64,000 bases of DNA, from the NCBI GenBank assembly GCA_037140475.1, contig JBAXEJ010000004.1, positions 1,599 to 65,598 on the forward strand. The letters run 5' to 3'. The stretch comes from Gallionellaceae bacterium (GTDB lineage: Bacteria; Pseudomonadota; Gammaproteobacteria; Burkholderiales; Gallionellaceae). Below the pieces are notes generated by a model, which searched no databases, had not been told where the DNA came from, and worked only from the letters and a program-made list of their open reading frames with translations. A program made the position numbers and the translations under genes. The stretch's first letter is position 1, and each line of letters opens with the position of its first letter. Of this stretch, positions 9,799-24,760 are shown in pieces.

Positions 9799-10045
9799 TA
9801 TTTTTTCCTAAAATTAGTTAAAGTGGGCACTGCAAAACTGTTCTGTTTGCTGCATTTGTTGAATCAATCACAATTCACCTGCTCGATTGAAACGGTAGGA
9901 AAGATAACTGCAAGTAAGTCCTATGAACAATTAGGCTAAACCCTAAGGTTGTCGAGCCTTCACAACCCTCCCGGCAAGAGGGTTGCTTCCAAAACAGAAC
10001 CACATGTGATTTGCCCCATTGCCGTGCATATTGGCAGCACATCCA

Positions 10046-11011
10046 TTACAACCAGCCAGAACGCCTAAATCGATAGTAAAGATAAGCGCAAGTAGCCCCA
10101 ATTAGAAACAAGGCCAACGGATAGCCGAAGCTCCATTTCAATTCGGGCATATTTTCAAAGTTCATTCCCCACACACCAACAAACGCAGTTGCAACAGCAA
10201 AAATCCCTGCCCATGCCGCAAGACGTTTATTTACTTCGTTTTGCTCGATAGACACGGTCGACTGGCAAACCAAAATTGCGGTCGTAATGGTCTCACGGAT
10301 ATTTTCGATAGAGGCGTTAATGCGAGTCAGATGGTCATGCACATCCCGAAAATATTCTTGCGTATTAGCACATACAGGCGGCACGCGCCCGCCGTGGAGC
10401 TTTCCTGTGGTTTCCATTAATGGGACAACCGCGTGCTTGAGTAAAACAACTTTCCGTTTAAGTTCATACAGCATTGAAATATTGGCAAGCGCCGTGCCTT
10501 TATCAAAGAGATTCTCTTCAATTTTTTCTAATTGCGACTCAAGGTCTTCCACCACCGGAAAATAGCGATCGACCACCTCATCCATTAGCGCATAAAACAC
10601 AAAGCCCGCCCCAAGTTGCAATAATTCCGGCTGGCGCTCGCAACGTTCGCGTACGCCAAGAAATTGCAAGTTACTGCGATTGCGAATCGACAAAACGAAA
10701 TTACGCCCGACAAAAATACTCACCTCGCCCACGACAATTTCTGTCCCGACCACCTCGACTAAGTGCATCGCGACAAAAAGCGTATCGTCATATTCTTCGA
10801 GTTTTGGACGCTGATGACCATGACGTGCATCTTCAATCGCTAAATCATGCAGCCCAAATTCTTCCTGCATTTTGTTTAATTCGATATCAGTTGTGTCGCG
10901 TAGCGCTACCCAAACAAAGCAATCTGGTTGCTGTAGATAGTCACTAATTTGTTCAACAGGAAGATCGGCGAGTTTGATGCCGTTTTTATAGGCTACGCAG
11001 TTAATCAACAT
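10046..11011 (-). CDS. corA: CorA magnesium/cobalt transporter
   Basis: 321 aa with two C-terminal TM helices and the signature GMN motif (VWGMNFENMPE). Confidence 0.93.
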   Translation of the reverse strand: MLINCVAYKNGIKLADLPVEQISDYLQQPDCFVWVALRDTTDIELNKMQEEFGLHDLAIEDARHGHQRPKLEEYDDTLFVAMHLVEVVGTEIVVGEVSIFVGRNFVLSIRNRSNLQFLGVRERCERQPELLQLGAGFVFYALMDEVVDRYFPVVEDLESQLEKIEENLFDKGTALANISMLYELKRKVVLLKHAVVPLMETTGKLHGGRVPPVCANTQEYFRDVHDHLTRINASIENIRETITTAILVCQSTVSIEQNEVNKRLAAWAGIFAVATAFVGVWGMNFENMPELKWSFGYPLALFLIGATCAYLYYRFRRSGWL

Positions 11012-11053
11012 AGGGGGTTCAATTAACTCAATTTAATCATGCTATTAAAAAAT

Positions 11054-12724
11054 CTATGGCTGATAGCCTGGAATTTTGCTGATGTCTACTTCGTCAATCT
11101 GCGAAGGATCTAGGAATTTTTTCGCGTAGTTTAAATACACTTTTTCTCGAATAAACAAATCAAATAACTCAGGATCAACGTGCCCATTTTCTTTGAAGTT
11201 ACCCAAAATTCTTAGCGACTCGGTCAGTGTTTTTCCATCTTTGTACGGCCGATCTTTGGCAGTGAGCGCTTCAAAAATATCGGCGATACCCATCATGCGC
11301 GCCTGCACCGACATCTGATCGCGAGTTAATCCACGTGGATAGCCTTTGCCATCCATGCGTTCGTGATGCCCTCCAGCAAACTCGGGAACATTTTTCAAAT
11401 GGCGTGGCCACGGCAAAGATTCCAACATTTTAATCGTGACATCAATGTGATGATTAATGATGCCGCGTTCTGCTGCCGTGAGTGTGCCCGCACGAATCGT
11501 CAAGTTACTCACTTCATCTTCACTCAGAAAATTAGCTTGCTGGCCGACTTCATTGATCCATTGATGTTGCGCAATGGCTCGCACTCGATCCTGGTCCGCA
11601 TCACTCATTTTTTCTGAGCCTAAATTGCTCTCGCGCAAAAAAACTCGTTCATCTTCAAGTTGAACTAGAAGCGCAGCGCATTCTTTGCGTTTTATTTCTA
11701 TTGTCGCGACATCCCCTTTCGCTGCGATTTCTGCCTGAAGAAAATTAATTTCCGCATCCCGTTTAAGCACCTCAAAGCGCGTATCGAGCAAATGGATGCG
11801 ATCAAAGATGGTTTGCAGCTTGGTAGATTTATCAACCACATGAACAGGTGTCGTGATTTTGCCGCAGTCATGCAACAGGGCTGCAATTTTGAGTTCGTAT
11901 TTTTCTTTTTCGGTCATGACAAAGTTTTGCAATGACGCACCCGGCTTTGCCTGAGTAATCGCCTCTGCCAACATCATGGTAAGTGCTGGCACACGTGCGC
12001 AATGGCCCCCGGTGTAAGGAGATTTATCGTCAATCGCGGTATTGATGAGACTAATAAACGACTCAAATAACTCTTCCAACTGTTGAATCAAGCGGCGATT
12101 ACTCAGCGCAATGGCGGCCTGAGAAGCGAGCGACTCGAGCAATTGCTGATCGTCTTGGCTAAACTGCCTAACTTCCTTTGTTACCGGATCAAGCGAGTTA
12201 ATTAATTGCAAAACCCCAATAATTTCTTGCTCATGATCGCGCATCGGCACGGTTAGAAACGAGCGCGAGCGATACCCCGTTTTTGCATCGAATTTTTTCG
12301 TGCCAGAGAAGTCGAAGCCCTCAGCCAAATAGGCGTCTTCGATATTAATAGTTTCACCACGCAGTGCTGAATAAGACACCACCATCGCTAAGTTTGGCTG
12401 GCCATTGACATAAAGCTGGATCGGATAAAAAGAGATTTTCTCTCCTGTAGTCCCCCCCATTTGAATCTTTAAAGAGTCATTGCGCAGAATTTCGAAGGTC
12501 AAAACTTTCTTTTCCGGATCGACCAGATAGAGCGTTCCAGCATCCGCATTGGTGATCTTTTTGGCTGCCAATAAAATATCTTCAAGTAGCTTGTCGATAT
12601 TTTTTTCGTTTGAAAGTGCCGCACCAATCTCATTTAAATCGCGCAAACGGGCCAACAAGCCCTCTAGCGTTGATAGCGGCGCTTGCGGTTGATCAACTCC
12701 GGTCTTTAGATTGGTAGCTTCCAT
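11054..12724 (-). CDS. GAF domain / HD-GYP phosphodiesterase
   Basis: N-terminal GAF (…IIGVLQLINS…). HD-GYP catalytic motifs LHDCGK and HHERMDGKGYPRG. Confidence 0.88.
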   Translation of the reverse strand: MEATNLKTGVDQPQAPLSTLEGLLARLRDLNEIGAALSNEKNIDKLLEDILLAAKKITNADAGTLYLVDPEKKVLTFEILRNDSLKIQMGGTTGEKISFYPIQLYVNGQPNLAMVVSYSALRGETINIEDAYLAEGFDFSGTKKFDAKTGYRSRSFLTVPMRDHEQEIIGVLQLINSLDPVTKEVRQFSQDDQQLLESLASQAAIALSNRRLIQQLEELFESFISLINTAIDDKSPYTGGHCARVPALTMMLAEAITQAKPGASLQNFVMTEKEKYELKIAALLHDCGKITTPVHVVDKSTKLQTIFDRIHLLDTRFEVLKRDAEINFLQAEIAAKGDVATIEIKRKECAALLVQLEDERVFLRESNLGSEKMSDADQDRVRAIAQHQWINEVGQQANFLSEDEVSNLTIRAGTLTAAERGIINHHIDVTIKMLESLPWPRHLKNVPEFAGGHHERMDGKGYPRGLTRDQMSVQARMMGIADIFEALTAKDRPYKDGKTLTESLRILGNFKENGHVDPELFDLFIREKVYLNYAKKFLDPSQIDEVDISKIPGYQP

Positions 12725-12734
12725 CGCAGGAGGA

Positions 12735-15122
12735 TTACTTAATGCAGACAGAGCGAACTTGATGAATATCAGTAATGCCCAACAAAACCTTTTCGATACC
12801 GTCTTGCTTCAGGGTGCGCATCCCCTCTTCTAACGCGATCGCAAATAATTCGGCAACCCGCGCGTGTTCTTGAATGCCTTTTTTAATCGGGTCAGTTCCA
12901 ATCAGCAATTCGTGCAAACCGACACGCCCACGATAGCCCGTACCAGAACATTTGTCGCAACCCACATGGTCGTACAAGGTAATCTGCCCCTTGTCGTCCC
13001 CAAACAATTTAACCCATTCTGCGTACTGCGCTTTGTAGGCGGCATTAGGGTCTTTCTTCCAACCTTCAGTGGTCAATAACTCGGCGCCATATTCAACCAG
13101 TAGTGCCTTAATTTCTTCTTGCGAAGCAATGTGTGGTTTTTTGCAGTCTTTGCATAAGCGCTTAGCAAGACGCTGCGCCAAAATACCCAATAACGCATCG
13201 GCAAAGTTAAACGGATCCATACCCATATCGAGCAAACGACTAATCGACTCTGGCGCACTATTGGTGTGCAAGGTGGCAAATACTAAGTGGCCCGTAAGCG
13301 AGGCCTCAATGCCGGTAGATACGGTTTCTTTGTCACGCATCTCACCGACCATAATCACATCTGGGTCGGCACGCAAAAATGCGCGCATGACCGTGGCAAA
13401 ATCAAGCCCTGCCTTTTTGTTAATCTGTACTTGGCGCAGCCCCTTTTGCGTAATCTCAACAGGATCTTCTGCTGTCCAGATTTTCGTCTCCGGGTTATTA
13501 ATGTGCTTCAAGATGGAGTGCAGAGTAGTGGTTTTACCCGAGCCGGTTGGACCACACACAAAGAACAAGCCATAAGGTTTGCTGACCGTTGTTTTGACTA
13601 ATTCCAAATTGCGTACCGAGAAGCCCATGTTGTCGAGCGGGATCGGCTCACCTGACGCCAGAATACGCATCACCACATCTTCAACGCCACCCTGCGATGG
13701 AATAGTTGCCACACGCAACTCGATATCTAACGGACCAAATTTTTTAAATTTAATTTTGCCGTCTTGCGGTTTCCGTTTTTCAGAAATATCTAAATCACAC
13801 ATGATCTTGAGTCGCGTAACCAAGGCATTGCGATAGGTCGAAGGAACCTCAATGTAGTTGAGCAAGGAGCCGTCTTTACGTAACCGAACCCCGGTTTTAC
13901 CCTTGCCCGGCATCGGCTCGATATGAATATCGGATGCGCCCATCTTGTAGGCATCCACGATAATCTTATTCACCAACTTGACCAACTCGTTATCCGCAGC
14001 CGCACTAACGTCTTCTTGACTAAGCGCACTGGATTCTTCCTCATCCGATCCAAGTGAAGTGAGTAGGTCATCCATGGAGCCCATGTCTTCCATGCTGCCA
14101 GTAGTCTCTGAACTACTGCTGCCACCGTAAAACAGATCAAGCGTGGCCTTAAATTCACGTTGCGGGCAGACACGATAAATCAGCCGATGCTTAGGAAAGA
14201 TGTTGTTTACAACGCGCGAGGCTTGAATTCGTTCAGGGTCGGTGGTGAGAATAATGAGCCCATCTGAAGAGTCATCAATCGGCACCCAGTGGCTACTCTC
14301 CACGTATTCGCGGCGTAGATTTTTAAGTAACTCACCCGGTTTAATACGGTCAGATTTGTACGGCTCATAGGGCACACCAAAAAAGCTGGATAGCGCCTTA
14401 CCTAATGCCTCTGTTTTTACTTGAAACTCATCAATCAGCACATCTTCAACATCAACGCCCTTGCGCCGTGCGGTACGGGTGGCCAATTCAAACTCTGCCG
14501 CCGACATCACTGCATCGGCCACCAAATAATCATATTTAGTTTTGACTATTCCCGCTTGCTGCTGACGCTGACGTAAGGCTACTGCAAGCGTCTGTGACAG
14601 CTCACGCACGCCTTCCTCCACCAACTCAGGAAAGGGAATGCCAGCCTTGTTGTTAATAACCTGAATAACGCCGATTAACTCGCCGGAAGTTGTTTCTAGG
14701 ATGGGCGCAACCAACATTTGCTTGGTGCGATAACCGGTGCGTTTATCCACGTCTTGCAAAAAGCGCAAAGTTGCGCTGAATGAAGTCAGCTCATGTTCGT
14801 CGTACACATCTTTAATATTGAGCAGCTTTTTATTGAACGCTGCAAAACCGGCGATACTTTGTTCTGCAATCGGAAGCTTGAGATCTTTAAAAGAATTTAG
14901 TCCCGTTTTAACTTTAGAAATTAACGAAGCTTTATCTTCTGCAACCACATAAACAGTTAAACGATCAGCATTAAAAAGATTGCAAATGTCCTTGCTGACA
15001 TCCAACATAATTTCGTCGATATTATTCGTCGCGTGAATCTTGTTGGTAACTTGGTTCAGATTTTTTGTGAACTCCAGCTGTGCACCAATTTCATTCACAT
15101 TGCCTTGCACCACATTATTCAT
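12735..15122 (-). CDS. GspE/PilB/MshE-family secretion-type ATPase with N-terminal GAF domain
   Basis: Contains a GAF domain (…ELIGVIQVINNK…) and a T2SSE_N/MshEN-like segment (LVADAVMSAAEFELATRTARRKGVDVEDVLIDE). An acidic Ser/Thr-rich linker follows. ATPase motifs are Walker A GPTGSGKTTT, Walker B DPDVIMVGEMRD and His box GHLVFATLHTN. Tetracysteine motif CKDC…CDKCSGTGYRGR. Confidence 0.9.
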   Translation of the reverse strand: MNNVVQGNVNEIGAQLEFTKNLNQVTNKIHATNNIDEIMLDVSKDICNLFNADRLTVYVVAEDKASLISKVKTGLNSFKDLKLPIAEQSIAGFAAFNKKLLNIKDVYDEHELTSFSATLRFLQDVDKRTGYRTKQMLVAPILETTSGELIGVIQVINNKAGIPFPELVEEGVRELSQTLAVALRQRQQQAGIVKTKYDYLVADAVMSAAEFELATRTARRKGVDVEDVLIDEFQVKTEALGKALSSFFGVPYEPYKSDRIKPGELLKNLRREYVESSHWVPIDDSSDGLIILTTDPERIQASRVVNNIFPKHRLIYRVCPQREFKATLDLFYGGSSSSETTGSMEDMGSMDDLLTSLGSDEEESSALSQEDVSAAADNELVKLVNKIIVDAYKMGASDIHIEPMPGKGKTGVRLRKDGSLLNYIEVPSTYRNALVTRLKIMCDLDISEKRKPQDGKIKFKKFGPLDIELRVATIPSQGGVEDVVMRILASGEPIPLDNMGFSVRNLELVKTTVSKPYGLFFVCGPTGSGKTTTLHSILKHINNPETKIWTAEDPVEITQKGLRQVQINKKAGLDFATVMRAFLRADPDVIMVGEMRDKETVSTGIEASLTGHLVFATLHTNSAPESISRLLDMGMDPFNFADALLGILAQRLAKRLCKDCKKPHIASQEEIKALLVEYGAELLTTEGWKKDPNAAYKAQYAEWVKLFGDDKGQITLYDHVGCDKCSGTGYRGRVGLHELLIGTDPIKKGIQEHARVAELFAIALEEGMRTLKQDGIEKVLLGITDIHQVRSVCIK

Positions 15123-15141
15123 AACTATTCCGACTTTCCTT

Positions 15142-16227
15142 TTATTGCTGCTCTGACTTTGGAATAGACCAAAGTCCGTTTTCTAACACGTTCACTTTGT
15201 AACCCGCTTGCGCCAAAATAAAAGCGGCGGCGGCACTACGGCGACCACTCTGGCAATAGGCAATATAAGGTACATCTTTACTTAACGCGCCAACCGCATT
15301 GCGGATATCGTTTAGCGGCACATTAATCGCCCCGGGTAGTTTGTCAAAACGGTACTCTGGAGGATGTCGCACGTCTAACCAAACAGCCCCCGTCGCCACT
15401 TCTTTTTTGGCCTCGGCATAGCTAATTTTATGCAACAGAGGTTCTTGCATCAGCTCAAGAAAGTCTTGCTTCTTGAGTCTAAGCAGGACTCCATTACTTC
15501 TCATGGTCACGGTCGCATTGCGTTTTGAATTTGAGATGAGCGCCTCTTCGCCGAATACATCGCCGGCTTTAAGTTCGGCCAACACCATCTGAGTTCCACC
15601 GACCATTCGCGTCACTTGAGCACGTCCGCTCTCAATCAAATAGTAGTAATCACCCTCACCCCCTTCATGGATGATGACTTCTTTATCCCACACCGCCACC
15701 ACTTCGATGCGTTCTAGCAGCATGCCAATGTTGGCTGAGGGCAAATGGGCAAATGGGCTGTTATGCAGATTTTCAGCACTAAACATGCCCGAATTTAATA
15801 ATCGCTTAACCACCGTATCCGCGTTTTTTTTCGCCTGAGGTGCTTTGCTTTCATCGTGATAGGAAAACTGATCCCAGGTAATCATCTGATCGAGCAGCTC
15901 ATCATCCACTCGTAATAGCTGAATGCGAGTGAGCGCCTTGGCTGAATTAATATTGGGCTGGCGCTTGCCAATAGGATGGCGAGCCCACTCAGAGTCTGCA
16001 CACATAACCACATTATTGCCATCAGCATAATTAATTTCGAGCTCGCCTCTCACCAGATAGACTGACTGTCCTTGCAACGAACGGCCCGCGAATGGGTCTT
16101 GCCCCTGTGCAATAGTTTCCAAATGACAATACTCAAGCAACTCTCTTAGCCGCGAAGGACCAAATGACGAGATGGGCTCTAAGGCTGCAAGCACTCGAAT
16201 ATCTAAAATATCATGCATACGACTCAA
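15142..16227 (-). CDS. tandem cyclic-nucleotide-binding domains fused to a rhodanese domain
   Basis: CAP_ED-like segment (GDYYYLIESGRAQV…FGEEALISNSKRNATV) and C-terminal rhodanese with active-site loop CQSGRRS. Confidence 0.8.
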   Translation of the reverse strand: MSRMHDILDIRVLAALEPISSFGPSRLRELLEYCHLETIAQGQDPFAGRSLQGQSVYLVRGELEINYADGNNVVMCADSEWARHPIGKRQPNINSAKALTRIQLLRVDDELLDQMITWDQFSYHDESKAPQAKKNADTVVKRLLNSGMFSAENLHNSPFAHLPSANIGMLLERIEVVAVWDKEVIIHEGGEGDYYYLIESGRAQVTRMVGGTQMVLAELKAGDVFGEEALISNSKRNATVTMRSNGVLLRLKKQDFLELMQEPLLHKISYAEAKKEVATGAVWLDVRHPPEYRFDKLPGAINVPLNDIRNAVGALSKDVPYIAYCQSGRRSAAAAFILAQAGYKVNVLENGLWSIPKSEQQ

Positions 16228-16239
16228 TTTATCCTTGTG

Positions 16240-17004
16240 TTAAAACTCGAACTCTTGTCCGTTTTGGAGCATTTTAGGAATAAAGCCAACGACGCATTCA
16301 CTAATTTCCTGCATCGTCAACTCCACCTCACCTGGTTTTAAATGCGTGATATAAATTTGCGGATTACGTTTGAGCTTAACGATGTCTTTAGCCAACAGGC
16401 TTGGACAAAAATGTTTAGACATCAGTGCTAAATCCAACTCAGCATTTGAGAATGCGGTTTCCACGATTAGGTATTGCAAATTTTCAATACTATTCAAGGT
16501 GTCCCACAGTGCAGAACACACCGAGGTGTCGCCGCTAAACGCTAAACTCGCCACTCCGCTATCCAATAAAAATCCAACTGCAGGCACAACGTGGTTAGCA
16601 GGTATTGCGGTAACCTTACGTCCCTGCAAATCAACAGTTTTGCCTAGCTCTATCGCCTCATAACGCAAACAAGGCTGTTGCGCATTAGGGATCACGCTGA
16701 AGTCAGGCCAGATCGACCAATTAAAAATATGCTGCTTAAGAGTGGCGATGGTTTCTGCAGTTGCGTGAACAGTTAGCGGTTTATCTCTCATAGCCCCAAC
16801 GCTATCAACCAGCAAAGGGATACACGCCACATGGTCCAAGTGGGAATGGGTGACAAAAACATGGTCGATCAAAATCATCTCAGCCAAACTTAAATCACCC
16901 ACCCCGGTTCCTGCATCAATCAATATATCGTGATCGAGCAACATCGAAGTCGTGCGCAAGTTTCCACCTATTCCGCCACTGCAACCTAGAATTCTTAACT
17001 TCAT
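16240..17004 (-). CDS. class-II 3',5'-cyclic-nucleotide phosphodiesterase (metallo-beta-lactamase fold)
   Basis: 254 aa. MKLRILGCSGG N-terminus and THSHLDH metal motif, typical of class-II cAMP phosphodiesterases. Confidence 0.75.
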   Translation of the reverse strand: MKLRILGCSGGIGGNLRTTSMLLDHDILIDAGTGVGDLSLAEMILIDHVFVTHSHLDHVACIPLLVDSVGAMRDKPLTVHATAETIATLKQHIFNWSIWPDFSVIPNAQQPCLRYEAIELGKTVDLQGRKVTAIPANHVVPAVGFLLDSGVASLAFSGDTSVCSALWDTLNSIENLQYLIVETAFSNAELDLALMSKHFCPSLLAKDIVKLKRNPQIYITHLKPGEVELTMQEISECVVGFIPKMLQNGQEFEF

Positions 17005-17057
17005 CGTTGAACCATCCCTGGCCGATTAAATTGCTAACTTAATATGTAGTTAGTAAT

Positions 17058-19277
17058 TTATTTTGTTTTAAATACAAATACGCCATCCCACTCACTACCT
17101 GGCGGATTCTGACGGAAGTAAACAACACGTTCCGCATAGACTTGATACAGCTTTTCTTGCGGAGACATTTTTTGCAAATTGAATAACTGCAACTCAGCCT
17201 GATCCCATTCTTGTTTGCGATAGGATCGTAGTGCTTGATGAAACAACTTCATTTCTTCCAAGGTATCTTTTTCGAGTTGTCCTGTCAGACCCATCGGCTG
17301 AAAAATCGCAACGGGCTTATCCTTACCTTTGACCCGCACCAAATCGAGCTCGCGATACACAAAGTCAGGTGCAACCTCCTTGGTCTTTTCACCGACAACT
17401 ATGCCAACACCATATTCTTTGGTAATGCCTTCCAATCGCGAAGCCAAGTTCACTGCATCGCCCATTACGGTATAGGCGACACGCACCTCGGAGCCCATGT
17501 TGCCTACACTCACCATTCCAGTATTGATACCCACACCAATATGTATGGGAGGCCAACCACGTTCTTTAAAGTGTGGTTGCAACGCCTCTAATGTTTGCAA
17601 CATTTCCAAGCCCGCCACAATCGAATGATGCGCATGATTTGCATCCGGCAGCGGAGCCCCCCAAAACGCCATGATGCAGTCGCCCATATATTTGTCGATG
17701 GTGCCACGATGCTTATAAACAACGCGTGACAGCGGTGTCAAAAACTCATTCATCAACAATGAAAGCTCTTTAGGATCTAGCCCTTCTGAAATAGTGGTAA
17801 AGCCTCGCACGTCAGAAAATAGAGTGGTCATCTCACGCCCCTCTCCTTCCATTGAAACGCTTTCTGGACGCTCACTCATTTCGCTGACCACTTCTTTCGG
17901 CACGTACTGTCCAAACAGATTAGTAATTTGCCGCTTAGTGCGCGATTCCACGAAATAACCATAGGACATATTAAGTGCAAAAAGTGCAACGATCATCATT
18001 AGGCCGCCGCCCAGGGGTAACGCAATATTGCCGTATTGCCACACGCCGCCGTTAATGACCACTGTCGCAATCAATATAACAACTGTCACCAAAGTATTCT
18101 GCAAGGGGTTGAGCAAAGGCAGTATAAAAGCCATGGCAATCCCCACCAGGAGTATGAGCAAAACCTCCACGCCAAGGACATATGGCGGGTTAGATTTAAT
18201 CGATTGATTGAGAATGCCACTAATCATGTTCGCGTGAATCTCAACTCCCGGGAATACTTCATCCACAGGTGTTGCTCGCAAATCCAATAAACCTGGCGCG
18301 GTGGTTCCGATCAAAATTATTTTATTTTTTAAATCATCTAGCGCCACGCGCTCTTTCAAGACGTCTACTACCGAAATATATTTAAAGGTATTACGTCCAC
18401 CACTATAGGGCACTAGCGCATCTACCTTTGCATCCACAGGAATACTCAACTTACCCTGCGAGGTAGCTAGCTCTAACCACTCCAAGCCAGCATAATCTTT
18501 TGCATTTGCGCCCTCGCCATAGCCAGGAATTAGTTGCGGTGAACCCAAGGCCGTACGCACAACCGCCAGCGACAATGACTCATAGTAAGCGCCTGCATAT
18601 TCCACCACCATGGGAATGCGCCTAACAATGCCGTCGAAATCCACCTGCGGATTAAAGTGCCCTGCTGATGCGGCATTCGCTTGAAACTCGGAAAGATTCG
18701 CACCATAGCCCTCCCATTTCGAAAAATTAATGGGGCGACCTTTAAATGAACCCGCTTCAAAAACTGGCGCTGGCAAAGCTCCCGAAACATCTTTTGCAGA
18801 ATTGAAGTAATACCCCAAAACAATATTTCTCTGCTTCATCTTATTGACGAACAGATTGTCATATTCAAGTTGAGGTTTGATCTGAGATAAAACTGACTGA
18901 AACTGAGCGACATCTTTGAGTTGATTTTTACCCAATTCCTGCAAAACTTTAAGACCGGAACTACTATCTCTTTCGGCAAATACGACGTCGAAGCCTACGA
19001 CTGCAACATTATATTTGTCGAATAGCTTGTCCATCAGTGAAGCAAGCTTGTCACGACCCCAAGGCCAACGCCCTTCTTCTTTTAGACTTTTCTCATCAAT
19101 ATCTAAAATAACGATACGATCATCGCTCACGTGTGGCAAAGTCAGACGCAAGCGCGTGTCATACAATTTTGCTTCTACAAAACTAACGAAACCAAGCTGA
19201 TAAAACCTTGCTGCGTTGCCGAGGAAGAGAAAGACGATAGCGAGGCCGAGTGCAATTAACAGTGCATGCTTTTTCAC
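17058..19277 (-). CDS. CHASE2 sensor / class-III adenylate-guanylate cyclase
   Basis: N-terminal TM and CHASE2 signature (EEGRWPWGRD), followed by a TM cluster. C-terminal cyclase domain (TTLFSDVRGFTTISE…GDCIMAFWGAP…MGDAVNLASRLE). Confidence 0.88.
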   Translation of the reverse strand: MKKHALLIALGLAIVFLFLGNAARFYQLGFVSFVEAKLYDTRLRLTLPHVSDDRIVILDIDEKSLKEEGRWPWGRDKLASLMDKLFDKYNVAVVGFDVVFAERDSSSGLKVLQELGKNQLKDVAQFQSVLSQIKPQLEYDNLFVNKMKQRNIVLGYYFNSAKDVSGALPAPVFEAGSFKGRPINFSKWEGYGANLSEFQANAASAGHFNPQVDFDGIVRRIPMVVEYAGAYYESLSLAVVRTALGSPQLIPGYGEGANAKDYAGLEWLELATSQGKLSIPVDAKVDALVPYSGGRNTFKYISVVDVLKERVALDDLKNKIILIGTTAPGLLDLRATPVDEVFPGVEIHANMISGILNQSIKSNPPYVLGVEVLLILLVGIAMAFILPLLNPLQNTLVTVVILIATVVINGGVWQYGNIALPLGGGLMMIVALFALNMSYGYFVESRTKRQITNLFGQYVPKEVVSEMSERPESVSMEGEGREMTTLFSDVRGFTTISEGLDPKELSLLMNEFLTPLSRVVYKHRGTIDKYMGDCIMAFWGAPLPDANHAHHSIVAGLEMLQTLEALQPHFKERGWPPIHIGVGINTGMVSVGNMGSEVRVAYTVMGDAVNLASRLEGITKEYGVGIVVGEKTKEVAPDFVYRELDLVRVKGKDKPVAIFQPMGLTGQLEKDTLEEMKLFHQALRSYRKQEWDQAELQLFNLQKMSPQEKLYQVYAERVVYFRQNPPGSEWDGVFVFKTK

Positions 19278-19328: not shown

Positions 19329-20075
19329 TCAAGCTTTAAAATAAAACTCCATTTTCACGCCGGCCAACTCAATGATGTCATGATCATTAAGTTGGTGCGG
19401 TTGCTCTCCGGTCGAGGCTCCATTCACCATCGGGAATTTTGCACCTTCAACATGAGTAATAAAGAAACCATGCGGACGCTTAGCCAGTACAGCAACTTGA
19501 ACGCCGGGCTTACCTAAAGTAGTCAAACTTTTGACCAACTCAAGCTCTTTACCTGCATTGGGTCCATTCAAAATTTGCACTGCGGCAACCTGACTTACGG
19601 CCGCTGGCGCTGCTGCCGCAACCTCTCCATCAGTGCCGGCAACAAATTTCCCCGTCACATCCCCTACCCCAACATTAGTTTGAGTGCGAGTAAAATCGCT
19701 CGTCTCGGCCCCTGCTTGGGAAGTCTTAACCGGCCTGCTCAACACCATCGTTTTTTCAAAATCAGCTGACGGAGCTTGCGCTGGCTGATCATTCAAATAT
19801 TTCAGCTTATATTTTCCAATTTCAATGAGGTCATTATTTTGCAGGAAGTGCTTTTTAGTCGCTGTTCCATTTACTGCAAGACCATTTGTACTTTCCAAAT
19901 CCTCTAGAAAGGAGTCATTCAGAATCGTAATGATCGCCGCGTGCTCGCTACTAATCGCTAAGTTGTCGATCACAATGTCGTTATGCGGTTTACGACCGAT
20001 TGTCGTGCGCTCTTTATTTAGCACATACTCTTTCAGCACCACGCCATCCATGCTGAGTATCAATTTAGCCGGCAT
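19329..20075 (-). CDS. FHA domain protein (canonical N-terminal FHA plus C-terminal FHA-like domain)
   Basis: TIGRKPHNDIVIDNLAISSEHAAI…STNGLAVNG is a canonical FHA. The C-terminal half (TTLGKPGVQV…MVNG…DIIELAG) looks like a degenerate second FHA. Confidence 0.85.
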   Translation of the reverse strand: MPAKLILSMDGVVLKEYVLNKERTTIGRKPHNDIVIDNLAISSEHAAIITILNDSFLEDLESTNGLAVNGTATKKHFLQNNDLIEIGKYKLKYLNDQPAQAPSADFEKTMVLSRPVKTSQAGAETSDFTRTQTNVGVGDVTGKFVAGTDGEVAAAAPAAVSQVAAVQILNGPNAGKELELVKSLTTLGKPGVQVAVLAKRPHGFFITHVEGAKFPMVNGASTGEQPHQLNDHDIIELAGVKMEFYFKA

Positions 20076-20092: not shown

Positions 20093-20965
20093 TTAATTCT
20101 TAAACCAAGACAATAATTTTTGCACCCATCCACTCGGGGTTGCAAATTTACCATTTACTTTCACTAAGATAACGGAGACATTATCGCGTCCGCCGTTGTC
20201 GTTTGCCATTTGTATCAGCTGAGTTGCGGCTAAGGGCAAGTTAGCCCGCAACATTTGCAATGTCGAACCAATATCTTCGTCTTCGACCATATCATTCAAT
20301 CCATCAGAGCAGAGTAAATAAACATCGCCCACCTGCAAATCATGAATATGGATTTCAACATCTACGTCATCATCAATACCCACGGCACGTGTGACTAAGT
20401 TTTTATTCTTAGAAGTACGCGCATCTTGTTTACTGATCATGCCGCTATCAATTTGCTCTTGCAGCAAAGAGTGATCGCGCGTGATGGTTTCAAATGTTTC
20501 ACCTCGCAGGCGGTACATTCGAGAATCACCCACATGCGCAACTGCCACCCGATCATCATAAAACAACGCCGCCACTATCGTTGTTCCCATGCCGGAATAT
20601 TGCGGCTGGCTTTCTGCGGCATGAAAAATAGAGGAGTTCGCTTTTTGCACATTATCGCGCAACAAAACTACCGCTTCATCCTCGCCGCTAAAAGCATCTT
20701 GCTCTTCAGGCTTTACGCTTTCCAAACGATGCTTAATCTCAGTTGCCACAACTGAAACCGCAATGCCGCTGGCCACCTCGCCAGCATTGTAGCCCCCCAT
20801 ACCGTCTGCCAAAACCACCAGGCCTGACGGCAAATCAAACGCCACACTATCTTCGTTGTGAGACCTGACCATTCCTGGATGGGTCTGACTTACCATCTCT
20901 AGCGCGTCTTGTATTTTCACACTCCACCCCTGCAATTCAATATTTAGTGCAAAGTCGCCGCACAC
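20093..20965 (-). CDS. PP2C-family Ser/Thr protein phosphatase
   Basis: Motifs RSHNEDS, LADGMGG, CSDGL and GGRDNVS. The start is uncertain: the track ATG overlaps the kinase stop by 22 nt, and a GTG at 20920 is an alternative. Confidence 0.88.
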   Translation of the reverse strand: MCGDFALNIELQGWSVKIQDALEMVSQTHPGMVRSHNEDSVAFDLPSGLVVLADGMGGYNAGEVASGIAVSVVATEIKHRLESVKPEEQDAFSGEDEAVVLLRDNVQKANSSIFHAAESQPQYSGMGTTIVAALFYDDRVAVAHVGDSRMYRLRGETFETITRDHSLLQEQIDSGMISKQDARTSKNKNLVTRAVGIDDDVDVEIHIHDLQVGDVYLLCSDGLNDMVEDEDIGSTLQMLRANLPLAATQLIQMANDNGGRDNVSVILVKVNGKFATPSGWVQKLLSWFKN

Positions 20966-23475
20966 TGGCGTATCGCCTCTGCCATTTCCTGTCCGGTTTG
21001 AAAACGATCTTCTACTTTTTTTGCCAGCGCCTTATTGATTACGTCAACGACACAGGCTGGCACATCTGGGCTAATCGTACGAATATCTGCATGCGGCTCA
21101 TTCGCAATTCGGAACATCAGTTGCGCCATTGAGTCTCCCTCAAAGGGTAGCTTACCACACACCATTTGATACAAACTCGCTCCCAAGGAGAACAAGTCTG
21201 ACTGCCCCTCAATTTTGGTACCCGCCAATTGCTCTGGTGACATATAGGAGGGCGTCCCCAATACCATGCCCGTTTTGGTTTTGGACGAATCAGTGATTCG
21301 TGCAATACCAAAATCGGTCACCTTAGCCGTGTCACTTTCCATGTCATACATGATATTTGCCGGTTTAATGTCGCGGTGCACCACATGGAGCGTGTGCGCA
21401 TAGCCAAGCGCATCAGCTACGCGTGCAATGATACTCAACACTTTAGGCAAAGGCAGCAAATTATCCCGCTTGGTGTAGGGGACGAGATCCTTCCCTTTTA
21501 AGAACTCCATCGCTATGTAAGCTAGATCGTGCTCTTCGCCCGCATCGTACATCGTCACGATATTCGGATGATTTAAACGGCCCGCAGTTTCTGCCTCGCG
21601 GAAGAAGCGCGCCTTAACATCTTCCAGCTCATCCGCATCGAACTCTTGCGACAAATTCATGGTTTTGATGGCCACCACGCGGCTAATTTTGGGATCTTTG
21701 CCGAGATAGACCACGCCCATCGCGCCCTTGCCCAGCTCTTTTTCGATTTCGTAACGACCCAACATTGGTTTACTGACGCCGGCCTTGTCCAACATCATCG
21801 TGCTCGCATTACTCTTGCCCGATGCCCCTCCCAAAATGACCGTTTCAGACATTGTCTTAGCTTGACTCATGCGCTGCTCTAAATCACGGAATTTTGGGTT
21901 GTAGTCAGTCATGTATTTAAACACTGACTCCGCCTTATTAAACTGGCGCTTGCGCTCAAAGTCTAAACCCAAGTTATACAACACATCCATCAAGCTATCG
22001 TCAATAGGCACTTTGCGCAGCTTATCAAATGCAATATCCAGTTGACCTTGCCCTTGAAAAGCCAACCCCAACATGCGGTTACTTTCAGCGGAGTCGGCAT
22101 CCGATTTAATCTTGCCTTGCTCAGTCACTAAGAAGCGTTTGGTCGTCAACAATAAATGGCCCACCAACAACAAAGCCGCCGGCAACATCAACTGTATCCA
22201 AAGTGCTTGCGTGGTCATCAACACAAAGTGACTAGTCAAAAGAGAAACAAACAAAACGACCGTCACAATTGCTCCAATACCAGCACTCAGCCGGGGCAAT
22301 AGTAAAATGAGATACAACGCGATCAGCAAAAAGATACCTGTTTGCGCCCAAAACGCCCAGCTCGGCACCACAAAGAAATCCTGTTTGAGAATGCTCGAAA
22401 TAGAATGCGCCAAAGTAACCACAGGCGACATCCCGGCAGAAACTGGCGTCACCTGTAGTGCGCCGACACCCGCAGCTGTTGCACCGATGAGCACAATTTT
22501 GTCGCGATATTTATCGGCAGGAATTTTTCCCGACAGCACATCGTAGAACGAATCCACTTGAAACGCGGGCTTCCCGTCACGGTCGCTATAAAAATAAGTG
22601 TGCATGCGCGACAAGGGGTCCGTCACGATATTTAAGCTACCAATCTTCACACTCTGCCCAAGATTAACTTGAATATCTTTTGGCTCAAGATTCAAACTTT
22701 TGGCCGCCAACATCAATGACAACGAAGGGTAAAACTGATCGAAATAATTCAACACGAGCGGCTCAGTGCGAATACCCCCATCGATATCCGGTGTGACATT
22801 GAGGTGGCCGATAGCAACTGCCAATGAGCCCAAAATCGGAATAGGCACCTGTGCGCCGTTGCTCTGGATGGGGAACATCCCCGGAGTGCCTTCTTTGATA
22901 TTCGCCAAACCGTTTTTCAACACATACTCTGGCAGAGGGTTACTTGGCCTGCCTTGCGGCTCGCCTAATTCGAAATACATGCCTAACAACACCGAATTCG
23001 CCTTGGCCATACTTTCAGCCAATTTCATGTCGTTATCGAGGTGTGACATCGCTTCCAGCAAGATCAGATTCAACTGTTCCCACTCGACCGGATTAGATTC
23101 TTTAATCGTTGAAGTTGCGAGAACAGTCGCCAGTTTATTGACATATTCCAAGCCTGCATCAACTTGCGGCTCAGAGAAAAACACGGTATTACCGATGACT
23201 TTGGCATGACCACTCGCCAAAATATCTAACAACTTACCTTGGGTCTCACGTGGCCAAGGCCAGCGTCCAAGGTTGGCAATGCTGTCATCGTCAATCGCGA
23301 TGATGGCGATTTTGTCACTCGCCACACGAGAAGAAGCGCGCACGCCAATGTCATAAGCCTTGCGCTCAAGGCTTTGCATCAAATCAGAGTTCGCCGTCGC
23401 CAAAAACACCAATGCAACTAGTACGCCAACAAACCAATCGGCTTTGAAGAACGTCACTTTTTTGATGTTAGCCAT
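20944..23475 (-). CDS. CHASE2 sensor / TPR-like linker / Hanks-type Ser/Thr protein kinase
   Basis: CHASE2 signature (NLGRWPWPRE) and a TM cluster. Kinase motifs GKGAMGVVY, VAIK, HRDIKPANI, DFGIA and GTPSYMSPE. Confidence 0.9.
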   Translation of the reverse strand: MANIKKVTFFKADWFVGVLVALVFLATANSDLMQSLERKAYDIGVRASSRVASDKIAIIAIDDDSIANLGRWPWPRETQGKLLDILASGHAKVIGNTVFFSEPQVDAGLEYVNKLATVLATSTIKESNPVEWEQLNLILLEAMSHLDNDMKLAESMAKANSVLLGMYFELGEPQGRPSNPLPEYVLKNGLANIKEGTPGMFPIQSNGAQVPIPILGSLAVAIGHLNVTPDIDGGIRTEPLVLNYFDQFYPSLSLMLAAKSLNLEPKDIQVNLGQSVKIGSLNIVTDPLSRMHTYFYSDRDGKPAFQVDSFYDVLSGKIPADKYRDKIVLIGATAAGVGALQVTPVSAGMSPVVTLAHSISSILKQDFFVVPSWAFWAQTGIFLLIALYLILLLPRLSAGIGAIVTVVLFVSLLTSHFVLMTTQALWIQLMLPAALLLVGHLLLTTKRFLVTEQGKIKSDADSAESNRMLGLAFQGQGQLDIAFDKLRKVPIDDSLMDVLYNLGLDFERKRQFNKAESVFKYMTDYNPKFRDLEQRMSQAKTMSETVILGGASGKSNASTMMLDKAGVSKPMLGRYEIEKELGKGAMGVVYLGKDPKISRVVAIKTMNLSQEFDADELEDVKARFFREAETAGRLNHPNIVTMYDAGEEHDLAYIAMEFLKGKDLVPYTKRDNLLPLPKVLSIIARVADALGYAHTLHVVHRDIKPANIMYDMESDTAKVTDFGIARITDSSKTKTGMVLGTPSYMSPEQLAGTKIEGQSDLFSLGASLYQMVCGKLPFEGDSMAQLMFRIANEPHADIRTISPDVPACVVDVINKALAKKVEDRFQTGQEMAEAIRQCAATLH

Positions 23476-24759: not shown

Positions 24760-24760
24760 A

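What the first reader, a model, noticed from the sequence alone, without database searches (positions are those of the whole stretch)
12735..15122. Orphan GspE/PilB-type ATPase with an N-terminal GAF domain and no platform, pilin or secretin gene nearby
The 795-aa protein carries the full secretion-ATPase motif set (Walker A/B, Asp and His boxes, tetracysteine Zn site) and an MshEN/T2SSE_N-like segment. These are preceded by a GAF domain. In established systems such ATPases act with a GspF/PilC platform protein. None is encoded anywhere in this 64-kb window, and both neighbours are nucleotide-signalling proteins. MshE-type N-domains are known c-di-GMP receptors. A GAF domain in front suggests an additional cyclic-nucleotide input, presumably from the cyclase four genes upstream.
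Basis: partly seen in the sequence, partly recalled or inferred. Interest (0 to 1): 0.75.

Follow-up and report, generated by a model that had tools for sequence, protein, structure and literature searches.

The report
cAMP-sensing orphan PilB-like ATPase
This gene encodes a pilus/secretion-type motor ATPase whose usual c-di-GMP sensor site has been rebuilt and which instead carries a cAMP-type GAF sensor; it sits in a conserved cAMP-signalling operon of iron-oxidising bacteria, suggesting a direct, still untested way for cAMP to control such a motor.

Summary
Window 12735-15122 (-) encodes a 795-aa GAF-MshEN-T2SSE protein with a complete catalytic motif set. No platform, pilin or secretin gene occurs in the 64 kb. 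The GAF is of the cyclic-mononucleotide class: its best solved relative is the CyaB2 cAMP GAF, and the pocket residues R54, T56, D126 and T129 are invariant in 76 orthologues. The gene lies in an 8-gene operon conserved across Gallionellaceae: CHASE2-Ser/Thr kinase, PP2C, FHA, CHASE2 adenylyl-type cyclase, Apyc1-like phosphodiesterase, cNMP-rhodanese, this ATPase, GAF-HD-GYP. However, the GAF is not an additional input. All six signature residues of the MshEN c-di-GMP site are replaced family-wide, so it more likely replaces that input. "No pilin nearby" is a local peculiarity: 50 of 59 related loci carry a prepilin gene directly downstream. Distant family members (Comamonadaceae, Nitrospirota, Desulfobacterota) are also orphans. 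The architecture was catalogued in 2016 (Geobacter lovleyi Glov_1971) but I found no characterisation. Most likely this is a cAMP-gated PilB-class ATPase acting on a type IV filament machine encoded elsewhere. Whether a separate canonical PilB exists in this genome could not be tested. Verdict: new variant of a known kind, moderate interest.

The parts
12735..15122 (-). GAF-MshEN-T2SSE ATPase gene, 795 aa; the finding itself
   Evidence: ORF; Pfam; 100% identical to P0001 from a Gallionellaceae MAG
14628..15077 (-). GAF domain (residues ~16-165), cNMP-binding class; pocket residues R54, T56, V71, D126, T129, T133
   Evidence: PDB phmmer best hit 1YKD CyaB2 at E 8e-26; CyaB2 contact residues from PMC4411481; Foldseek; pocket invariant in 76 orthologues
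14541..14627 (-). Connector helix (residues ~166-194) joining the GAF to MshEN_N
   Evidence: Model shows helix 166-192
14373..14540 (-). MshEN_N four-helix bundle (residues 195-250) with a remodelled c-di-GMP site: T195-K196-Y197 and D224-V225-E226 replace the two RLG motifs; A218 and F247 replace the two Gln
   Evidence: Motif search negative; alignment to VcMshE/PilB; fold retained
14118..14372 (-). MshEN_C / N1D alpha-beta subdomain (residues 251-335)
   Evidence: Pfam MshEN 248-336; model; 5HTL match with TM 0.70 normalised to the target
14007..14117 (-). Acidic, Ser/Thr-rich low-complexity linker (residues 336-372), the least conserved segment apart from the first 15 residues
   Evidence: 56% column identity against 83-93% for the domains; alignment
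12738..14006 (-). PilB/GspE-class ATPase core (N2D + CTD, residues 373-795) with intact catalytic motifs, a tetracysteine site and an insert between the CxxC pairs
   Evidence: Pfam T2SSE; NCBIfam PilB 480 bits and GspE 445 bits, both below equivalog cut-offs; PDB PilF/PilB ~1e-100; motifs
11054..12724 (-). GAF-HD-GYP (c-di-GMP phosphodiesterase type), 10 nt downstream; last gene of the conserved module
   Evidence: Pfam; HD and HHExxDGxGYP motifs visible in the translation; its GAF is 28% identical to the ATPase GAF, E 9e-14; synteny
15142..16227 (-). cNMP_binding + rhodanese protein, 19 nt upstream
   Evidence: Pfam; detected in 41 of 77 Gallionellaceae loci
16240..17004 (-). MBL-fold cyclic-nucleotide phosphodiesterase (Apyc1-like / PDEase_II-like)
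   Evidence: Pfam; NCBIfam weak hit to cyclic nucleotide-degrading phosphodiesterase; also paired with the ATPase in Giesbergeria
17058..19277 (-). CHASE2 class III nucleotide cyclase with an adenylyl-type Lys/Thr specificity pair
   Evidence: Pfam; alignment to P. aeruginosa CyaB 3R5G and Cya2 2W01/6FHT
19329..20075 (-). FHA-domain protein
   Evidence: Pfam; synteny
20093..20965 (-). PP2C Ser/Thr phosphatase
   Evidence: Pfam; overlaps the kinase gene by 22 nt
20944..23475 (-). CHASE2 Ser/Thr protein kinase; first gene of the conserved module
   Evidence: Pfam; synteny

Best explanation
The protein is a catalytically competent PilB/GspE-class hexameric ATPase whose regulatory input has been switched from c-di-GMP to a cyclic mononucleotide, most likely cAMP. 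Proposed chain: a periplasmic cue acts on the CHASE2 cyclase, which makes cAMP. The Apyc1-like MBL phosphodiesterase resets cAMP. cAMP binds three co-encoded receptors: the CAP-type domain of the cNMP-rhodanese protein, the GAF of the HD-GYP enzyme (lowering c-di-GMP, as in Tlr0485), and the GAF of this ATPase. Ligand binding is passed through the ~27-residue connector helix to the remodelled MshEN/N1D module. This changes ATPase activity or its docking to a membrane platform. The platform and filament are encoded elsewhere. The most likely target is a type IV pilus, because a prepilin gene lies directly downstream in most relatives. The ATPase would then act as a cAMP-gated extension motor alongside the dedicated ATPases. 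The CHASE2-kinase/PP2C/FHA genes add a phospho-Thr branch to the same operon. Shown: the domain folds, motif states, operon conservation, orphan status, and the cyclase and GAF residue patterns. Inferred: the ligand identity, the allosteric coupling, the target machine and the role of the kinase branch.
For: GAF class. The best PDB sequence hits are all cNMP GAFs plus PmGH: 1YKD 8e-26, 4MCW 2e-10, and PDE2A/10A/6/5 at 1e-8 to 1e-6. Foldseek gives the same set plus Lcd1 GAF with cAMP. The CyaB2 cAMP contacts R291, T293, I308, D356 and N359 (PMC4411481) map to R54, T56, V71, D126 and T129. These are invariant or near-invariant in 76 Gallionellaceae orthologues and largely kept in 22 distant representatives. 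PDE10A shares the ADR triplet, while PDE2A GAF-B has Ile at the Arg position.

Cyclase. GTIDKYMGD (Lys) and YTVMGD (Thr) match P. aeruginosa CyaB. Cya2 (2W01) has Glu at the Lys position.

Operon. Gaps are -22 to 53 nt. The same order is found in ES-1 and in about 70 Gallionellaceae loci. The Apyc1-like PDE is 4 nt upstream of the ATPase in Giesbergeria.

c-di-GMP site. It is lost but the fold is kept.

Catalytic motifs. They are intact. The ATPase is the most conserved protein of the module: 82% median identity against 66-76%.

Pilus link. A prepilin gene lies downstream in 50 of 59 loci, with none in the ~1.2 Mb of control loci or in the window.

Precedents. GAF-HD-GYP Tlr0485 is cAMP-activated. 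A. baylyi uses two extension ATPases on one pilus. PilB-like ATPases fused to a C-terminal cNMP_binding domain exist and sit next to family members.
Against: No ligand binding, ATPase activity or partner has been measured. The NKFDE motif typical of cNMP GAFs is only partly kept here: N157, F164 and E169 are present, but the Lys and Asp positions are changed (my reading). Arg54 is present in only 16 of 22 distant representatives. Outside the beta-proteobacterial branch, no cyclase or PDE lies next to the gene. Pilin adjacency is confined to Gallionellaceae and may reflect generally conserved gene order, since TerC, Usp and flhDC are equally syntenic. Synteny breaks exactly between HD-GYP and the pilin region. 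No platform gene is linked in any of about 170 loci examined. Tandem triplets of paralogues without pilus genes hint that the family can work without a filament machine.
Confidence: 0.45

Rival explanations
1. It is simply the family's one and only T4a pilus extension ATPase (PilB) that has acquired a GAF. The downstream pilA would be a remnant of a pilA-pilB locus, with pilC and pilD elsewhere. The sensing mechanism could be the same, but the protein would not be an orphan or an extra motor.
For: A prepilin with Pfam Pilin + N_methyl lies directly downstream in 50 of 59 relatives. The best NCBIfam and PDB matches are PilB/PilF. Conservation is very high, like a core machine part. Emerson 2013 lists PilMNOPQ, minor pilins and PilT/U for ES-1 and ES-2 but does not name a pilB.
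Against: The score against the PilB equivalog model is 480 bits, against a cut-off of 676. Orthologous family members in Comamonadaceae, Nitrospirota and Desulfobacterota stand alone, away from pil genes. No pilC or pilD lies within 10 kb in any locus. The window's own lineage and its closest relatives have lost the adjacent pilin but keep the ATPase at 86-93% identity.
Confidence: 0.15
2. It is a free-standing signalling ATPase that powers no filament. In this reading it is a cAMP-controlled hexameric switch or scaffold whose output goes through protein partners such as the FHA protein, the kinase or the HD-GYP. M. xanthus PilB, which doubles as a signalling protein for exopolysaccharide, is a partial analogy.
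For: No platform, pilin or secretin is linked in distant lineages. A Desulfobacterota sub-branch has lost catalytic motifs. In L171 and L172 three paralogues sit in tandem, two active and one degenerate, with no pilus genes nearby. The remodelled MshEN surface is itself strongly conserved, as expected for a new protein-protein interface. The title and abstract of PMC5544727 describe PilB as a signalling protein.
Against: The window protein keeps every catalytic and Zn-site motif, and its N2D and CTD are the most constrained parts at 92-93%, as in working motors. The MshEN_C/N1D subdomain, which the PilB review hypothesises engages additional inner-membrane platform components, is retained. Pilin adjacency in Gallionellaceae also argues against this.
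Confidence: 0.2
3. The GAF does not sense cAMP or cGMP. It would bind another small molecule or serve only as a dimerisation module. Any nucleotide control would come indirectly, for example from c-di-GMP through an unrecognised site or from phosphorylation by the kinase.
For: GAF ligands are diverse, and the ligand of the closely matching PmGH GAF is unknown. The NKFDE motif is incomplete. Isolated cNMP GAFs can have relaxed specificity. Most distant members have no cyclase nearby.
Against: Every significant solved relative other than PmGH is a cNMP-binding GAF. The purine- and ribose-contacting residues are conserved and invariant. The gene is embedded between a cyclase, a cNMP PDE and a CAP-domain protein.
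Confidence: 0.12
4. The cluster is a Pycsar-like anti-phage defence system: a cyclase plus cNMP-binding effectors plus an Apyc1-like enzyme, with the ATPase as an effector.
For: PADLOC gives PycC hits for the cyclase (100 bits) and PycTIR-type hits for the cNMP-binding domain. The MBL protein hits the Anti-Pycsar Apyc1 Pfam family.
Against: The hits cover only generic domains. No TIR or transmembrane effector is present, and the ATPase, HD-GYP and MBL have no meaningful PADLOC hit. The module is inherited vertically at a fixed core-genome position between sucCD/terC/usp and the pilin/flhDC region across the whole family. The cyclase carries a CHASE2 membrane sensor and adenylyl-type residues.
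Confidence: 0.03

Closest known systems
GAF-MshEN-T2SSE architecture listed by Wang et al. 2016 (Nat Commun 7:12481, Supplementary Table 4; example Geobacter lovleyi Glov_1971)
   Same: Identical domain order. Uncharacterised in both cases.
   Different: It was listed for gamma- and delta-proteobacteria and implicitly as a c-di-GMP receptor. Here the protein is in Betaproteobacteria (plus Nitrospirota and Desulfobacterota relatives) and the c-di-GMP motifs are replaced. I could not retrieve Glov_1971 to test whether it is orthologous.
Vibrio cholerae MshE and c-di-GMP-binding PilB proteins (MshEN receptors)
   Same: Same MshEN_N + MshEN_C fold (5HTL, TM 0.70 normalised to the target) followed by the same ATPase core. 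The nucleotide second messenger is sensed at the N-terminus.
   Different: R9, G11, Q32, R38, G40 and Q61 are all replaced. An extra N-terminal GAF is present. The gene is not in a pilus operon.
Xanthomonas XpsE (GspE with a degenerate MshEN)
   Same: The MshEN fold is retained while c-di-GMP-binding residues are lost.
   Different: XpsE sits in a T2SS operon and has no replacement sensor. Here the changes are a distinct, conserved set, and a GAF has been added.
Anabaena CyaB2 and PDE2/5/6/10 regulatory GAF domains; Leptospira Lcd1 GAF
   Same: Closest solved GAFs by both sequence and structure. The cAMP-contacting residues are shared.
   Different: Those GAFs regulate cyclase, phosphodiesterase or GGDEF outputs. 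I found no described case with a PilB/GspE-type ATPase as output. This is a single GAF, whereas CyaB2 and the PDEs have a tandem pair.
Acinetobacter baylyi TfpB (second T4P extension ATPase)
   Same: A PilB-class paralogue, encoded apart from pilB, that acts on the same pilus machine. This is a possible functional model.
   Different: TfpB has no GAF, and the NCBIfam TfpB model scores only 374 bits against a cut-off of 850.
GAF-HD-GYP enzymes Tlr0485 (cAMP-activated) and PmGH
   Same: The downstream neighbour has this architecture. Its GAF is homologous to the ATPase GAF (28% identity), and the PmGH GAF is the top structural match.
   Different: These are a separate protein with a phosphodiesterase output. 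They are relevant as the probable sister receptor in the same operon.
MshEN-T2SSE-cNMPbind ATPases (Desulfotalea DP2226 type)
   Same: A PilB-like ATPase fused to a cyclic-mononucleotide sensor. Found directly downstream of family members in 4-5 metagenomic loci.
   Different: The sensor is a C-terminal CAP-type domain, and the MshEN RLG motifs are intact.

Membership tests
PilB/GspE-class secretion ATPase (Pfam T2SSE PF00437) | Walker A, Asp box, Walker B with catalytic Glu, and His box | tested here: met
   GPTGSGKT, PQDGK, DPDVIMVGEMRD, TGHLVFATLHTN; Pfam 369 bits
PilB/GspE-class secretion ATPase (Pfam T2SSE PF00437) | Tetracysteine Zn-binding motif typical of extension-type ATPases | tested here: met
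   CKDC 657-660 and CDKC 722-725; conserved in the family with a longer-than-usual insert. Zn binding itself was not testable.
Type IVa pilus assembly ATPase PilB (NCBIfam TIGR02538 equivalog) | Score at or above the curated equivalog cut-off | tested here: not met
   480.5 bits against a cut-off of 675.65
Type IVa pilus assembly ATPase PilB (NCBIfam TIGR02538 equivalog) | Genomic association with pilC/pilD or other pilus biogenesis genes | tested here: inconclusive
   No pilC or pilD in the window, and none seen among the Pfam-annotated genes within 8-10 kb of ten family members. In the remaining loci no platform-sized recurrent neighbour cluster turned up, but there was no direct PilC/PilD screen. 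A prepilin gene lies directly downstream in 50 of 59 Gallionellaceae loci.
Type II secretion ATPase GspE (NCBIfam TIGR02533 equivalog) | Score at or above the cut-off, and location in a gsp operon with gspF/gspL | tested here: not met
   444.6 bits against a cut-off of 630.25. No gsp genes in the window. Gallionella ES-2 lacks a T2SS, yet Gallionella genomes keep the gene.
MshE-type c-di-GMP receptor (MshEN domain) | MshEN_N four-helix bundle plus MshEN_C fold | tested here: met
   Pfam MshEN 41 bits; model; Foldseek 5HTL_B at E 4e-7, TM 0.70 normalised to the target
MshE-type c-di-GMP receptor (MshEN domain) | [quoted passage not shown] | tested here: not met
   No match to the strict or relaxed motif. 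R9T, G11Y, Q32A, R38D, G40E, Q61F by explicit alignment.
MshE-type c-di-GMP receptor (MshEN domain) | Binds c-di-GMP | not testable with these tools
   Needs ITC or DRaCALA. Loss of binding is predicted by analogy with XpsE.
Cyclic-mononucleotide-binding GAF domains (CyaB1/2, PDE2/5/6/10/11 type) | GAF fold with closest relatives among cNMP-binding GAFs | tested here: met
Cyclic-mononucleotide-binding GAF domains (CyaB1/2, PDE2/5/6/10/11 type) | Conservation of ligand-contacting pocket residues (CyaB2 R291, T293, I308, D356, N359) | tested here: met
   R54, T56, V71, D126, T129; invariant in 76 orthologues
Cyclic-mononucleotide-binding GAF domains (CyaB1/2, PDE2/5/6/10/11 type) | NKFDE motif | tested here: inconclusive
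   The family consensus reads N..K....F...DE. The window protein has N157, F164 and E169 but N158/K159 spacing differs and V168 stands in place of Asp (my reading of the alignment).
Cyclic-mononucleotide-binding GAF domains (CyaB1/2, PDE2/5/6/10/11 type) | Binds cAMP or cGMP | not testable with these tools
   Needs a binding assay
GAF-MshEN-T2SSE architecture (Wang 2016, Supplementary Table 4) | Domain order GAF, MshEN, T2SSE in one polypeptide | tested here: met
   22 full-architecture 50%-identity clusters among the top 150 representatives
Pycsar anti-phage system | Cyclase paired with a cNMP-activated TIR or transmembrane effector, in a mobile defence-island context | tested here: not met
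   Only generic domain hits and no effector; fixed core-genome synteny

The most novel reading that the evidence does not exclude
GAF-MshEN-T2SSE proteins form a widespread, uncharacterised family of PilB-type ATPases. In this family the ancestral c-di-GMP pocket was deliberately filled in, with conserved aromatic and acidic replacements, and control was handed to a cyclic-mononucleotide GAF. In the most novel version the family works as a free-standing cAMP-driven hexameric machine or switch, independent of any pilus or secretion apparatus. It would form hetero-oligomers with catalytically dead paralogues in Desulfobacterota, and in Gallionellaceae it would be the energy-consuming output of a dual CHASE2 (kinase + cyclase) sensory operon.
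Probability: 0.2. Interest if true: 0.8.

Novelty: new variant of a known kind. Interest (0 to 1): 0.55.

Why it matters
Known second-messenger control of pilus and secretion motors works in two ways. c-di-GMP binds MshEN or PilZ/FimX adaptors, and cAMP acts only at the transcriptional level through Vfr/Crp (2024 review). A PilB-class ATPase with a cAMP-type GAF and a remodelled c-di-GMP site would add direct, post-translational cAMP gating of such a motor. It would also give a concrete example of one nucleotide input being swapped for another on the same scaffold.

The operon places this ATPase beside a cAMP-type GAF-HD-GYP. One signal could therefore both lower c-di-GMP and switch the motor. 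This is a compact, testable cAMP/c-di-GMP crosstalk node in iron-oxidising bacteria, where attachment and escape from mineral crusts matter ecologically.

The family is large: at least 253 clusters at 50% identity and at least 596 species genomes. It is the best-conserved protein of its operon, yet no functional characterisation turned up in the literature I could search.

Tried and rejected
- **Genome scan with A1.** The 16-sequence alignment was too diverse. I repeated the scan with 4 sequences (A2), and its best 80 loci were all Gallionellaceae.
- **Promoter and terminator scan of 9000-24800.** Counts were at or below the shuffled expectation (18 vs 24; 17 vs 16.7), so it says nothing about operon structure. 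The operon inference rests on spacing and synteny.
- **Rfam on the whole window.** No hit, so there is no riboswitch explanation.
- **Looking for a canonical pilB or expression data in Gallionellaceae.** The ES-1 transcriptome supplement, the Ferrigenium preprint, the pangenome paper and the Denise 2019 census supplements gave nothing usable.
- **MshEN register.** I first read the register as K196-Y197-D198 = RLG (notes). This was off by one. The explicit alignment with the VcMshE sequence gives T195-K196-Y197.
- **Translation call.** One search failed on frame and was redone.
- **PADLOC.** Only generic domain hits, so the defence reading was rejected.
- **CHASE2 domains of kinase and cyclase.** They are only 28% identical, so I do not claim they sense the same cue.
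- **Not attempted.** I did not build a formal phylogeny of the ATPase core, because reference sequences could not be imported. Classification rests on NCBIfam and PDB score ranking. I did not model the full-length protein, because inter-domain geometry from a monomer model would not be reliable.


Full report
**1. Observation**

The window carries a 795-aa ORF at 12735-15122 on the minus strand. Pfam places GAF at residues 35-183, MshEN at 248-336 and T2SSE at 376-789, all above gathering thresholds. The catalytic set is complete. Walker A is GPTGSGKT, the Asp box is PQDGK, Walker B with the catalytic Glu is DPDVIMVGEMRD, the His box is TGHLVFATLHTN, and there are two CxxC pairs.

An AlphaFold model of residues 1-345 is confident (mean pLDDT 82.6). 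It shows a six-stranded GAF, a ~27-residue connector helix, a four-helix MshEN_N bundle and an alpha/beta MshEN_C. Foldseek matches the first half to cNMP-type GAFs and the second half to VcMshE (5HTL, TM 0.70 normalised to the target).

I ran Pfam on every ORF of at least 120 aa in the 64 kb and a prepilin-motif scan in all six frames. There is no T2SSF/PilC, secretin, PilMNOP or pilin. The only slip is that the cyclase is the third gene upstream, not the fourth.

**2. Source and conservation**

The protein is 100% identical to one from a Gallionellaceae MAG and about 87% identical to the orthologues of Sideroxydans lithotrophicus ES-1 and Sideroxyarcus emersonii. At least 596 species-representative genomes encode a relative of the sensor half, and the best 80 are all Gallionellaceae. 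A search of 1.84 billion cluster representatives with residues 1-369 gives 253 clusters at E<=1e-30. Twenty-two of the top 150 have the full architecture, including tandem- and triple-GAF forms. Named distant members come from Giesbergeria (Comamonadaceae), Candidatus Nitrobium/Thermodesulfovibrionales (Nitrospirota) and Desulfobacterota.

**3. The gene is part of a conserved signalling operon**

On the same strand the order is: CHASE2-Ser/Thr kinase, PP2C, FHA protein, CHASE2 class III cyclase, MBL phosphodiesterase (Apyc1-like/PDEase_II-like), cNMP_binding-rhodanese, the ATPase, then GAF-HD-GYP. Gaps between these genes run from -22 to 53 nt.

The same order is found in ES-1 and throughout the Gallionellaceae loci. 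Out of 77 loci with the ATPase, detection counts were MBL 74, cyclase 69, PP2C 69, FHA 68, HD-GYP 68, kinase 59 and cNMP-rhodanese 41. Many of the absences are contig ends. Nucleotide synteny with every relative stops exactly at the 3' end of the HD-GYP gene, which marks the edge of the module.

The ATPase is the best-conserved member: median 82% identity, against 66-76% for the others and 89% for housekeeping SucD. All of its domains are constrained: GAF 83%, MshEN_N 86%, N2D 92%, CTD 93%.

**4. What the GAF senses**

By sequence, the closest solved proteins are the cAMP-binding tandem GAF of Anabaena CyaB2 (E 8e-26), the GAF of the HD-GYP enzyme PmGH, and the GAFs of PDE2A, PDE10A, PDE6 and PDE5. 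The structural search gives the same list plus Lcd1 GAF with cAMP.

The published cAMP contacts of CyaB2 GAF-B are R291, T293, I308, D356 and N359 (PMC4411481). Through the alignment these map to R54, T56, V71, D126 and T129. All are invariant or near-invariant in 76 Gallionellaceae orthologues and mostly kept in 22 distant representatives: D126 in 22/22, T56 in 19/22, R54 in 16/22. PDE10A shares the ADR triplet, while PDE2A GAF-B has Ile at the Arg position.

The co-operonic cyclase has Lys in GTIDKYMGD and Thr in YTVMGD, like P. aeruginosa CyaB, whereas Cya2 (2W01) has Glu at the Lys position. From my own knowledge, K/T is the class IIIb adenylyl pattern. cAMP is therefore the most likely ligand. 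cGMP or another cNMP is not excluded, and the NKFDE motif is only partly kept.

**5. The MshEN c-di-GMP site is gone**

Neither the strict motif nor the relaxed motif of Wang et al. 2016 occurs in the protein. I recovered the VcMshE sequence from PDB alignments and made an explicit alignment. It gives R9T195, L10K196, G11Y197, L29T215, Q32A218, R38D224, G40E226, G47F233 and Q61F247. The helix-packing positions are kept: L14/V15, L43/I44, L54 and L58.

R9 and Q32 are experimentally important in MshE, and XpsE lost binding through comparable changes. The replacements are themselves conserved. In 22 family representatives there is an aromatic at G11 in 21, Glu at G40 in 20, Ala at Q32 in 19, and Phe/Tyr at Q61 in 21. 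In Gallionellaceae they are nearly invariant. This looks like a fixed remodelling of the groove, not drift. I infer that the GAF replaced the c-di-GMP input rather than adding to it. The c-di-GMP connection now runs through the neighbouring GAF-HD-GYP. An enzyme of that architecture (Tlr0485) is cAMP-activated.

**6. Which ATPase it is**

NCBIfam ranks PilB (480 bits) above GspE (445), TfpB (374), ComGA (241) and PilT (167). The protein is well below the equivalog cut-offs of PilB (676) and GspE (630). PDB ranking agrees: PilF/PilB ~1e-100, GspE ~1e-92, PilT ~1e-33. It is an extension-type PilB/GspE-class ATPase that is neither a canonical PilB nor a canonical GspE. An insert between the two CxxC pairs is a family feature and is longer in the six closest sequences.

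**7. Orphan or not**

In the window it is an orphan. However, in 50 of 59 Gallionellaceae loci with enough downstream sequence, a same-strand prepilin ORF (145-190 aa; Pfam Pilin + N_methyl in ES-1) starts about 170-600 nt after the HD-GYP gene. It is usually followed by a TPR protein and often by flhDC-motAB. The same motif scan finds none in the window or in 87 distant loci, so the signal is specific. The window and its closest relatives (L004, L006-L008) have lost this pilin.

ES-1 and ES-2 encode PilMNOPQ, minor pilins, MSH clusters and PilT/U. ES-1 also has a T2SS with gspE, and ES-2 has none. The GAF-ATPase is therefore not the only GspE/PilB-class paralogue in ES-1, and it is not tied to the T2SS.

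Outside Gallionellaceae, the ten Pfam-annotated contexts showed no pilus or secretion genes. The 65 metagenomic loci clustered by neighbour showed no prepilin ORF and no recurrent platform-sized neighbour, although PilC and secretin were not screened for directly there. In Giesbergeria the Apyc1-like phosphodiesterase sits 4 nt upstream. In a Desulfobacterota-like clade the recurrent signalling neighbours are REC-REC-HD-GYP and a second ATPase of the MshEN-T2SSE-cNMP_binding type.

**8. Mechanism proposed**

A cue at the CHASE2 cyclase raises cAMP, and the MBL phosphodiesterase resets it. cAMP binds the GAF of the ATPase, and the signal passes through the connector helix to the remodelled MshEN/N1D. 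This changes ATPase activity or its engagement with a membrane platform encoded elsewhere, most plausibly a type IV pilus. In parallel, the GAF-HD-GYP lowers c-di-GMP. The kinase/PP2C/FHA genes provide a phospho-Thr branch; the Ser/Thr-rich acidic linker (336-372) is a speculative target.

Folds, motif states, synteny and residue patterns are shown. Ligand, allostery, target and kinase role are inferred. I give this 0.45.

Rivals:
- Sole PilB of the family: 0.15.
- Free-standing signalling ATPase: 0.20. This is supported by the orphan distribution, a pseudo-ATPase branch and tandem paralogue triplets.
- Non-cNMP GAF: 0.12.
- Defence system: 0.03.

**9. Comparison with what is known, and novelty**

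The domain architecture is not new. Wang et al. 2016 list "GAF - MshEN - T2SSE" (Geobacter lovleyi Glov_1971, gamma- and delta-proteobacteria) without any reference. I found no characterisation in the searchable literature. The 2024 review of PilB regulation never mentions GAF, and its cAMP section describes only transcriptional control through Vfr.

What is new here is the reading: a cAMP-class GAF with a conserved pocket, a family-wide remodelled c-di-GMP site, a conserved cAMP operon in Gallionellaceae, and orphan status across phyla. I therefore rate it as a new variant of a known kind, with interest 0.55. The main gap is that a whole-genome check for a separate canonical PilB and for unpaired platform genes could not be run with the scans available.

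Noticed in passing
window 11054-11064 (boundary); loci L001, L009-L083 downstream of the GAF-HD-GYP gene: In 50 of 59 related Gallionellaceae loci a type IV prepilin gene follows the module, usually with a TPR protein and often flhDC-motAB-MCP. In this window the spot instead holds CorA (10046-11011) and DsrE (9343-9798). Nucleotide synteny with all relatives ends exactly at the HD-GYP stop, so this is a variable junction.
   Followed up: yes
window 43119-44300 (-): A cNMP_binding-EAL protein: a second predicted cyclic-mononucleotide to c-di-GMP crosstalk enzyme in the same window, with the same architecture as the cAMP-sensing Bdellovibrio Bd1971 (PMC6717892, seen). It lies next to a MASE3-PAS histidine kinase, a REC protein and a REC-PAS histidine kinase (38721-43049).
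   Followed up: no
L171 2771-11892 and L172 3113-12378: Three consecutive GAF(-GAF)-MshEN-T2SSE paralogues on one strand in two unrelated metagenomic contigs, with no pilus or secretion genes within 9 kb. In each triplet two copies keep all catalytic motifs and the third has lost the Asp box, Walker B Glu and His box. This suggests a hetero-oligomeric, self-contained system.
   Followed up: partly
P0218, P0250, P0263, P0266 (single-GAF) and P0186, P0192, P0143 (multi-GAF): A sub-branch of the family has degenerate Walker A/B, Asp and His boxes (likely pseudo-ATPases). The three named members (the P0250 cluster, P0263, P0266) are from Desulfobacterales, Thermodesulfobacteriota and Desulfobacteraceae.
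   Followed up: partly
L119 and four other metagenomic loci (gene directly downstream of the GAF-ATPase): A 748-aa MshEN-T2SSE-cNMP_binding ATPase with intact RLG motifs sits next to the GAF-ATPase. This is a second, independent way of fusing a cyclic-mononucleotide sensor to a PilB-like ATPase (architecture listed for Desulfotalea DP2226 in Wang 2016).
   Followed up: partly
L138 and eight other metagenomic loci (mostly the gene directly upstream, same strand): A REC-REC-HD-GYP protein recurs next to distant GAF-ATPases, echoing the GAF-HD-GYP neighbour in Gallionellaceae. The ATPase/HD-GYP pairing may be older than the rest of the operon.
   Followed up: partly
L084 9217-9996 (Giesbergeria): An Apyc1-like MBL phosphodiesterase ends 4 nt before the GAF-ATPase start in a Comamonadaceae genome that lacks the rest of the Gallionellaceae operon.
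   Followed up: partly
window 23576-24001 (-): A universal stress protein gene lies 100 nt upstream of the kinase and is syntenic in all Gallionellaceae loci. Some USPs bind cAMP (Rv1636, PMC11107214, seen), so it may belong to the module.
   Followed up: no
window 15142-16227 (-): The cNMP_binding-rhodanese protein has what looks like a CX4R-type rhodanese active-site loop (CQSGRRS). It was detected in only 41 of 77 Gallionellaceae loci and appears absent from many Gallionella loci (by record title).
   Followed up: partly
window 12945-13154 (-), residues 657-725 of the ATPase: The segment between the two CxxC pairs is about 60 residues, with an extra ~30-residue insert shared by the six closest sequences (WIN, P0054, P0133, P0147, P0159, P0165). 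It is less conserved (71%) than the flanking core.
   Followed up: partly
window 7352-9262 (+): An HDOD-REC-GGDEF protein (probable diguanylate cyclase response regulator) is encoded just beyond the module on the opposite strand.
   Followed up: no
window 57307-58095 (-): A MazF/PemK-type toxin gene lies next to a short S24-peptidase-like gene, and an HTH_3 regulator is at 60702-61091. This is a small mobile or toxin-antitoxin-like patch unrelated to the finding.
   Followed up: no
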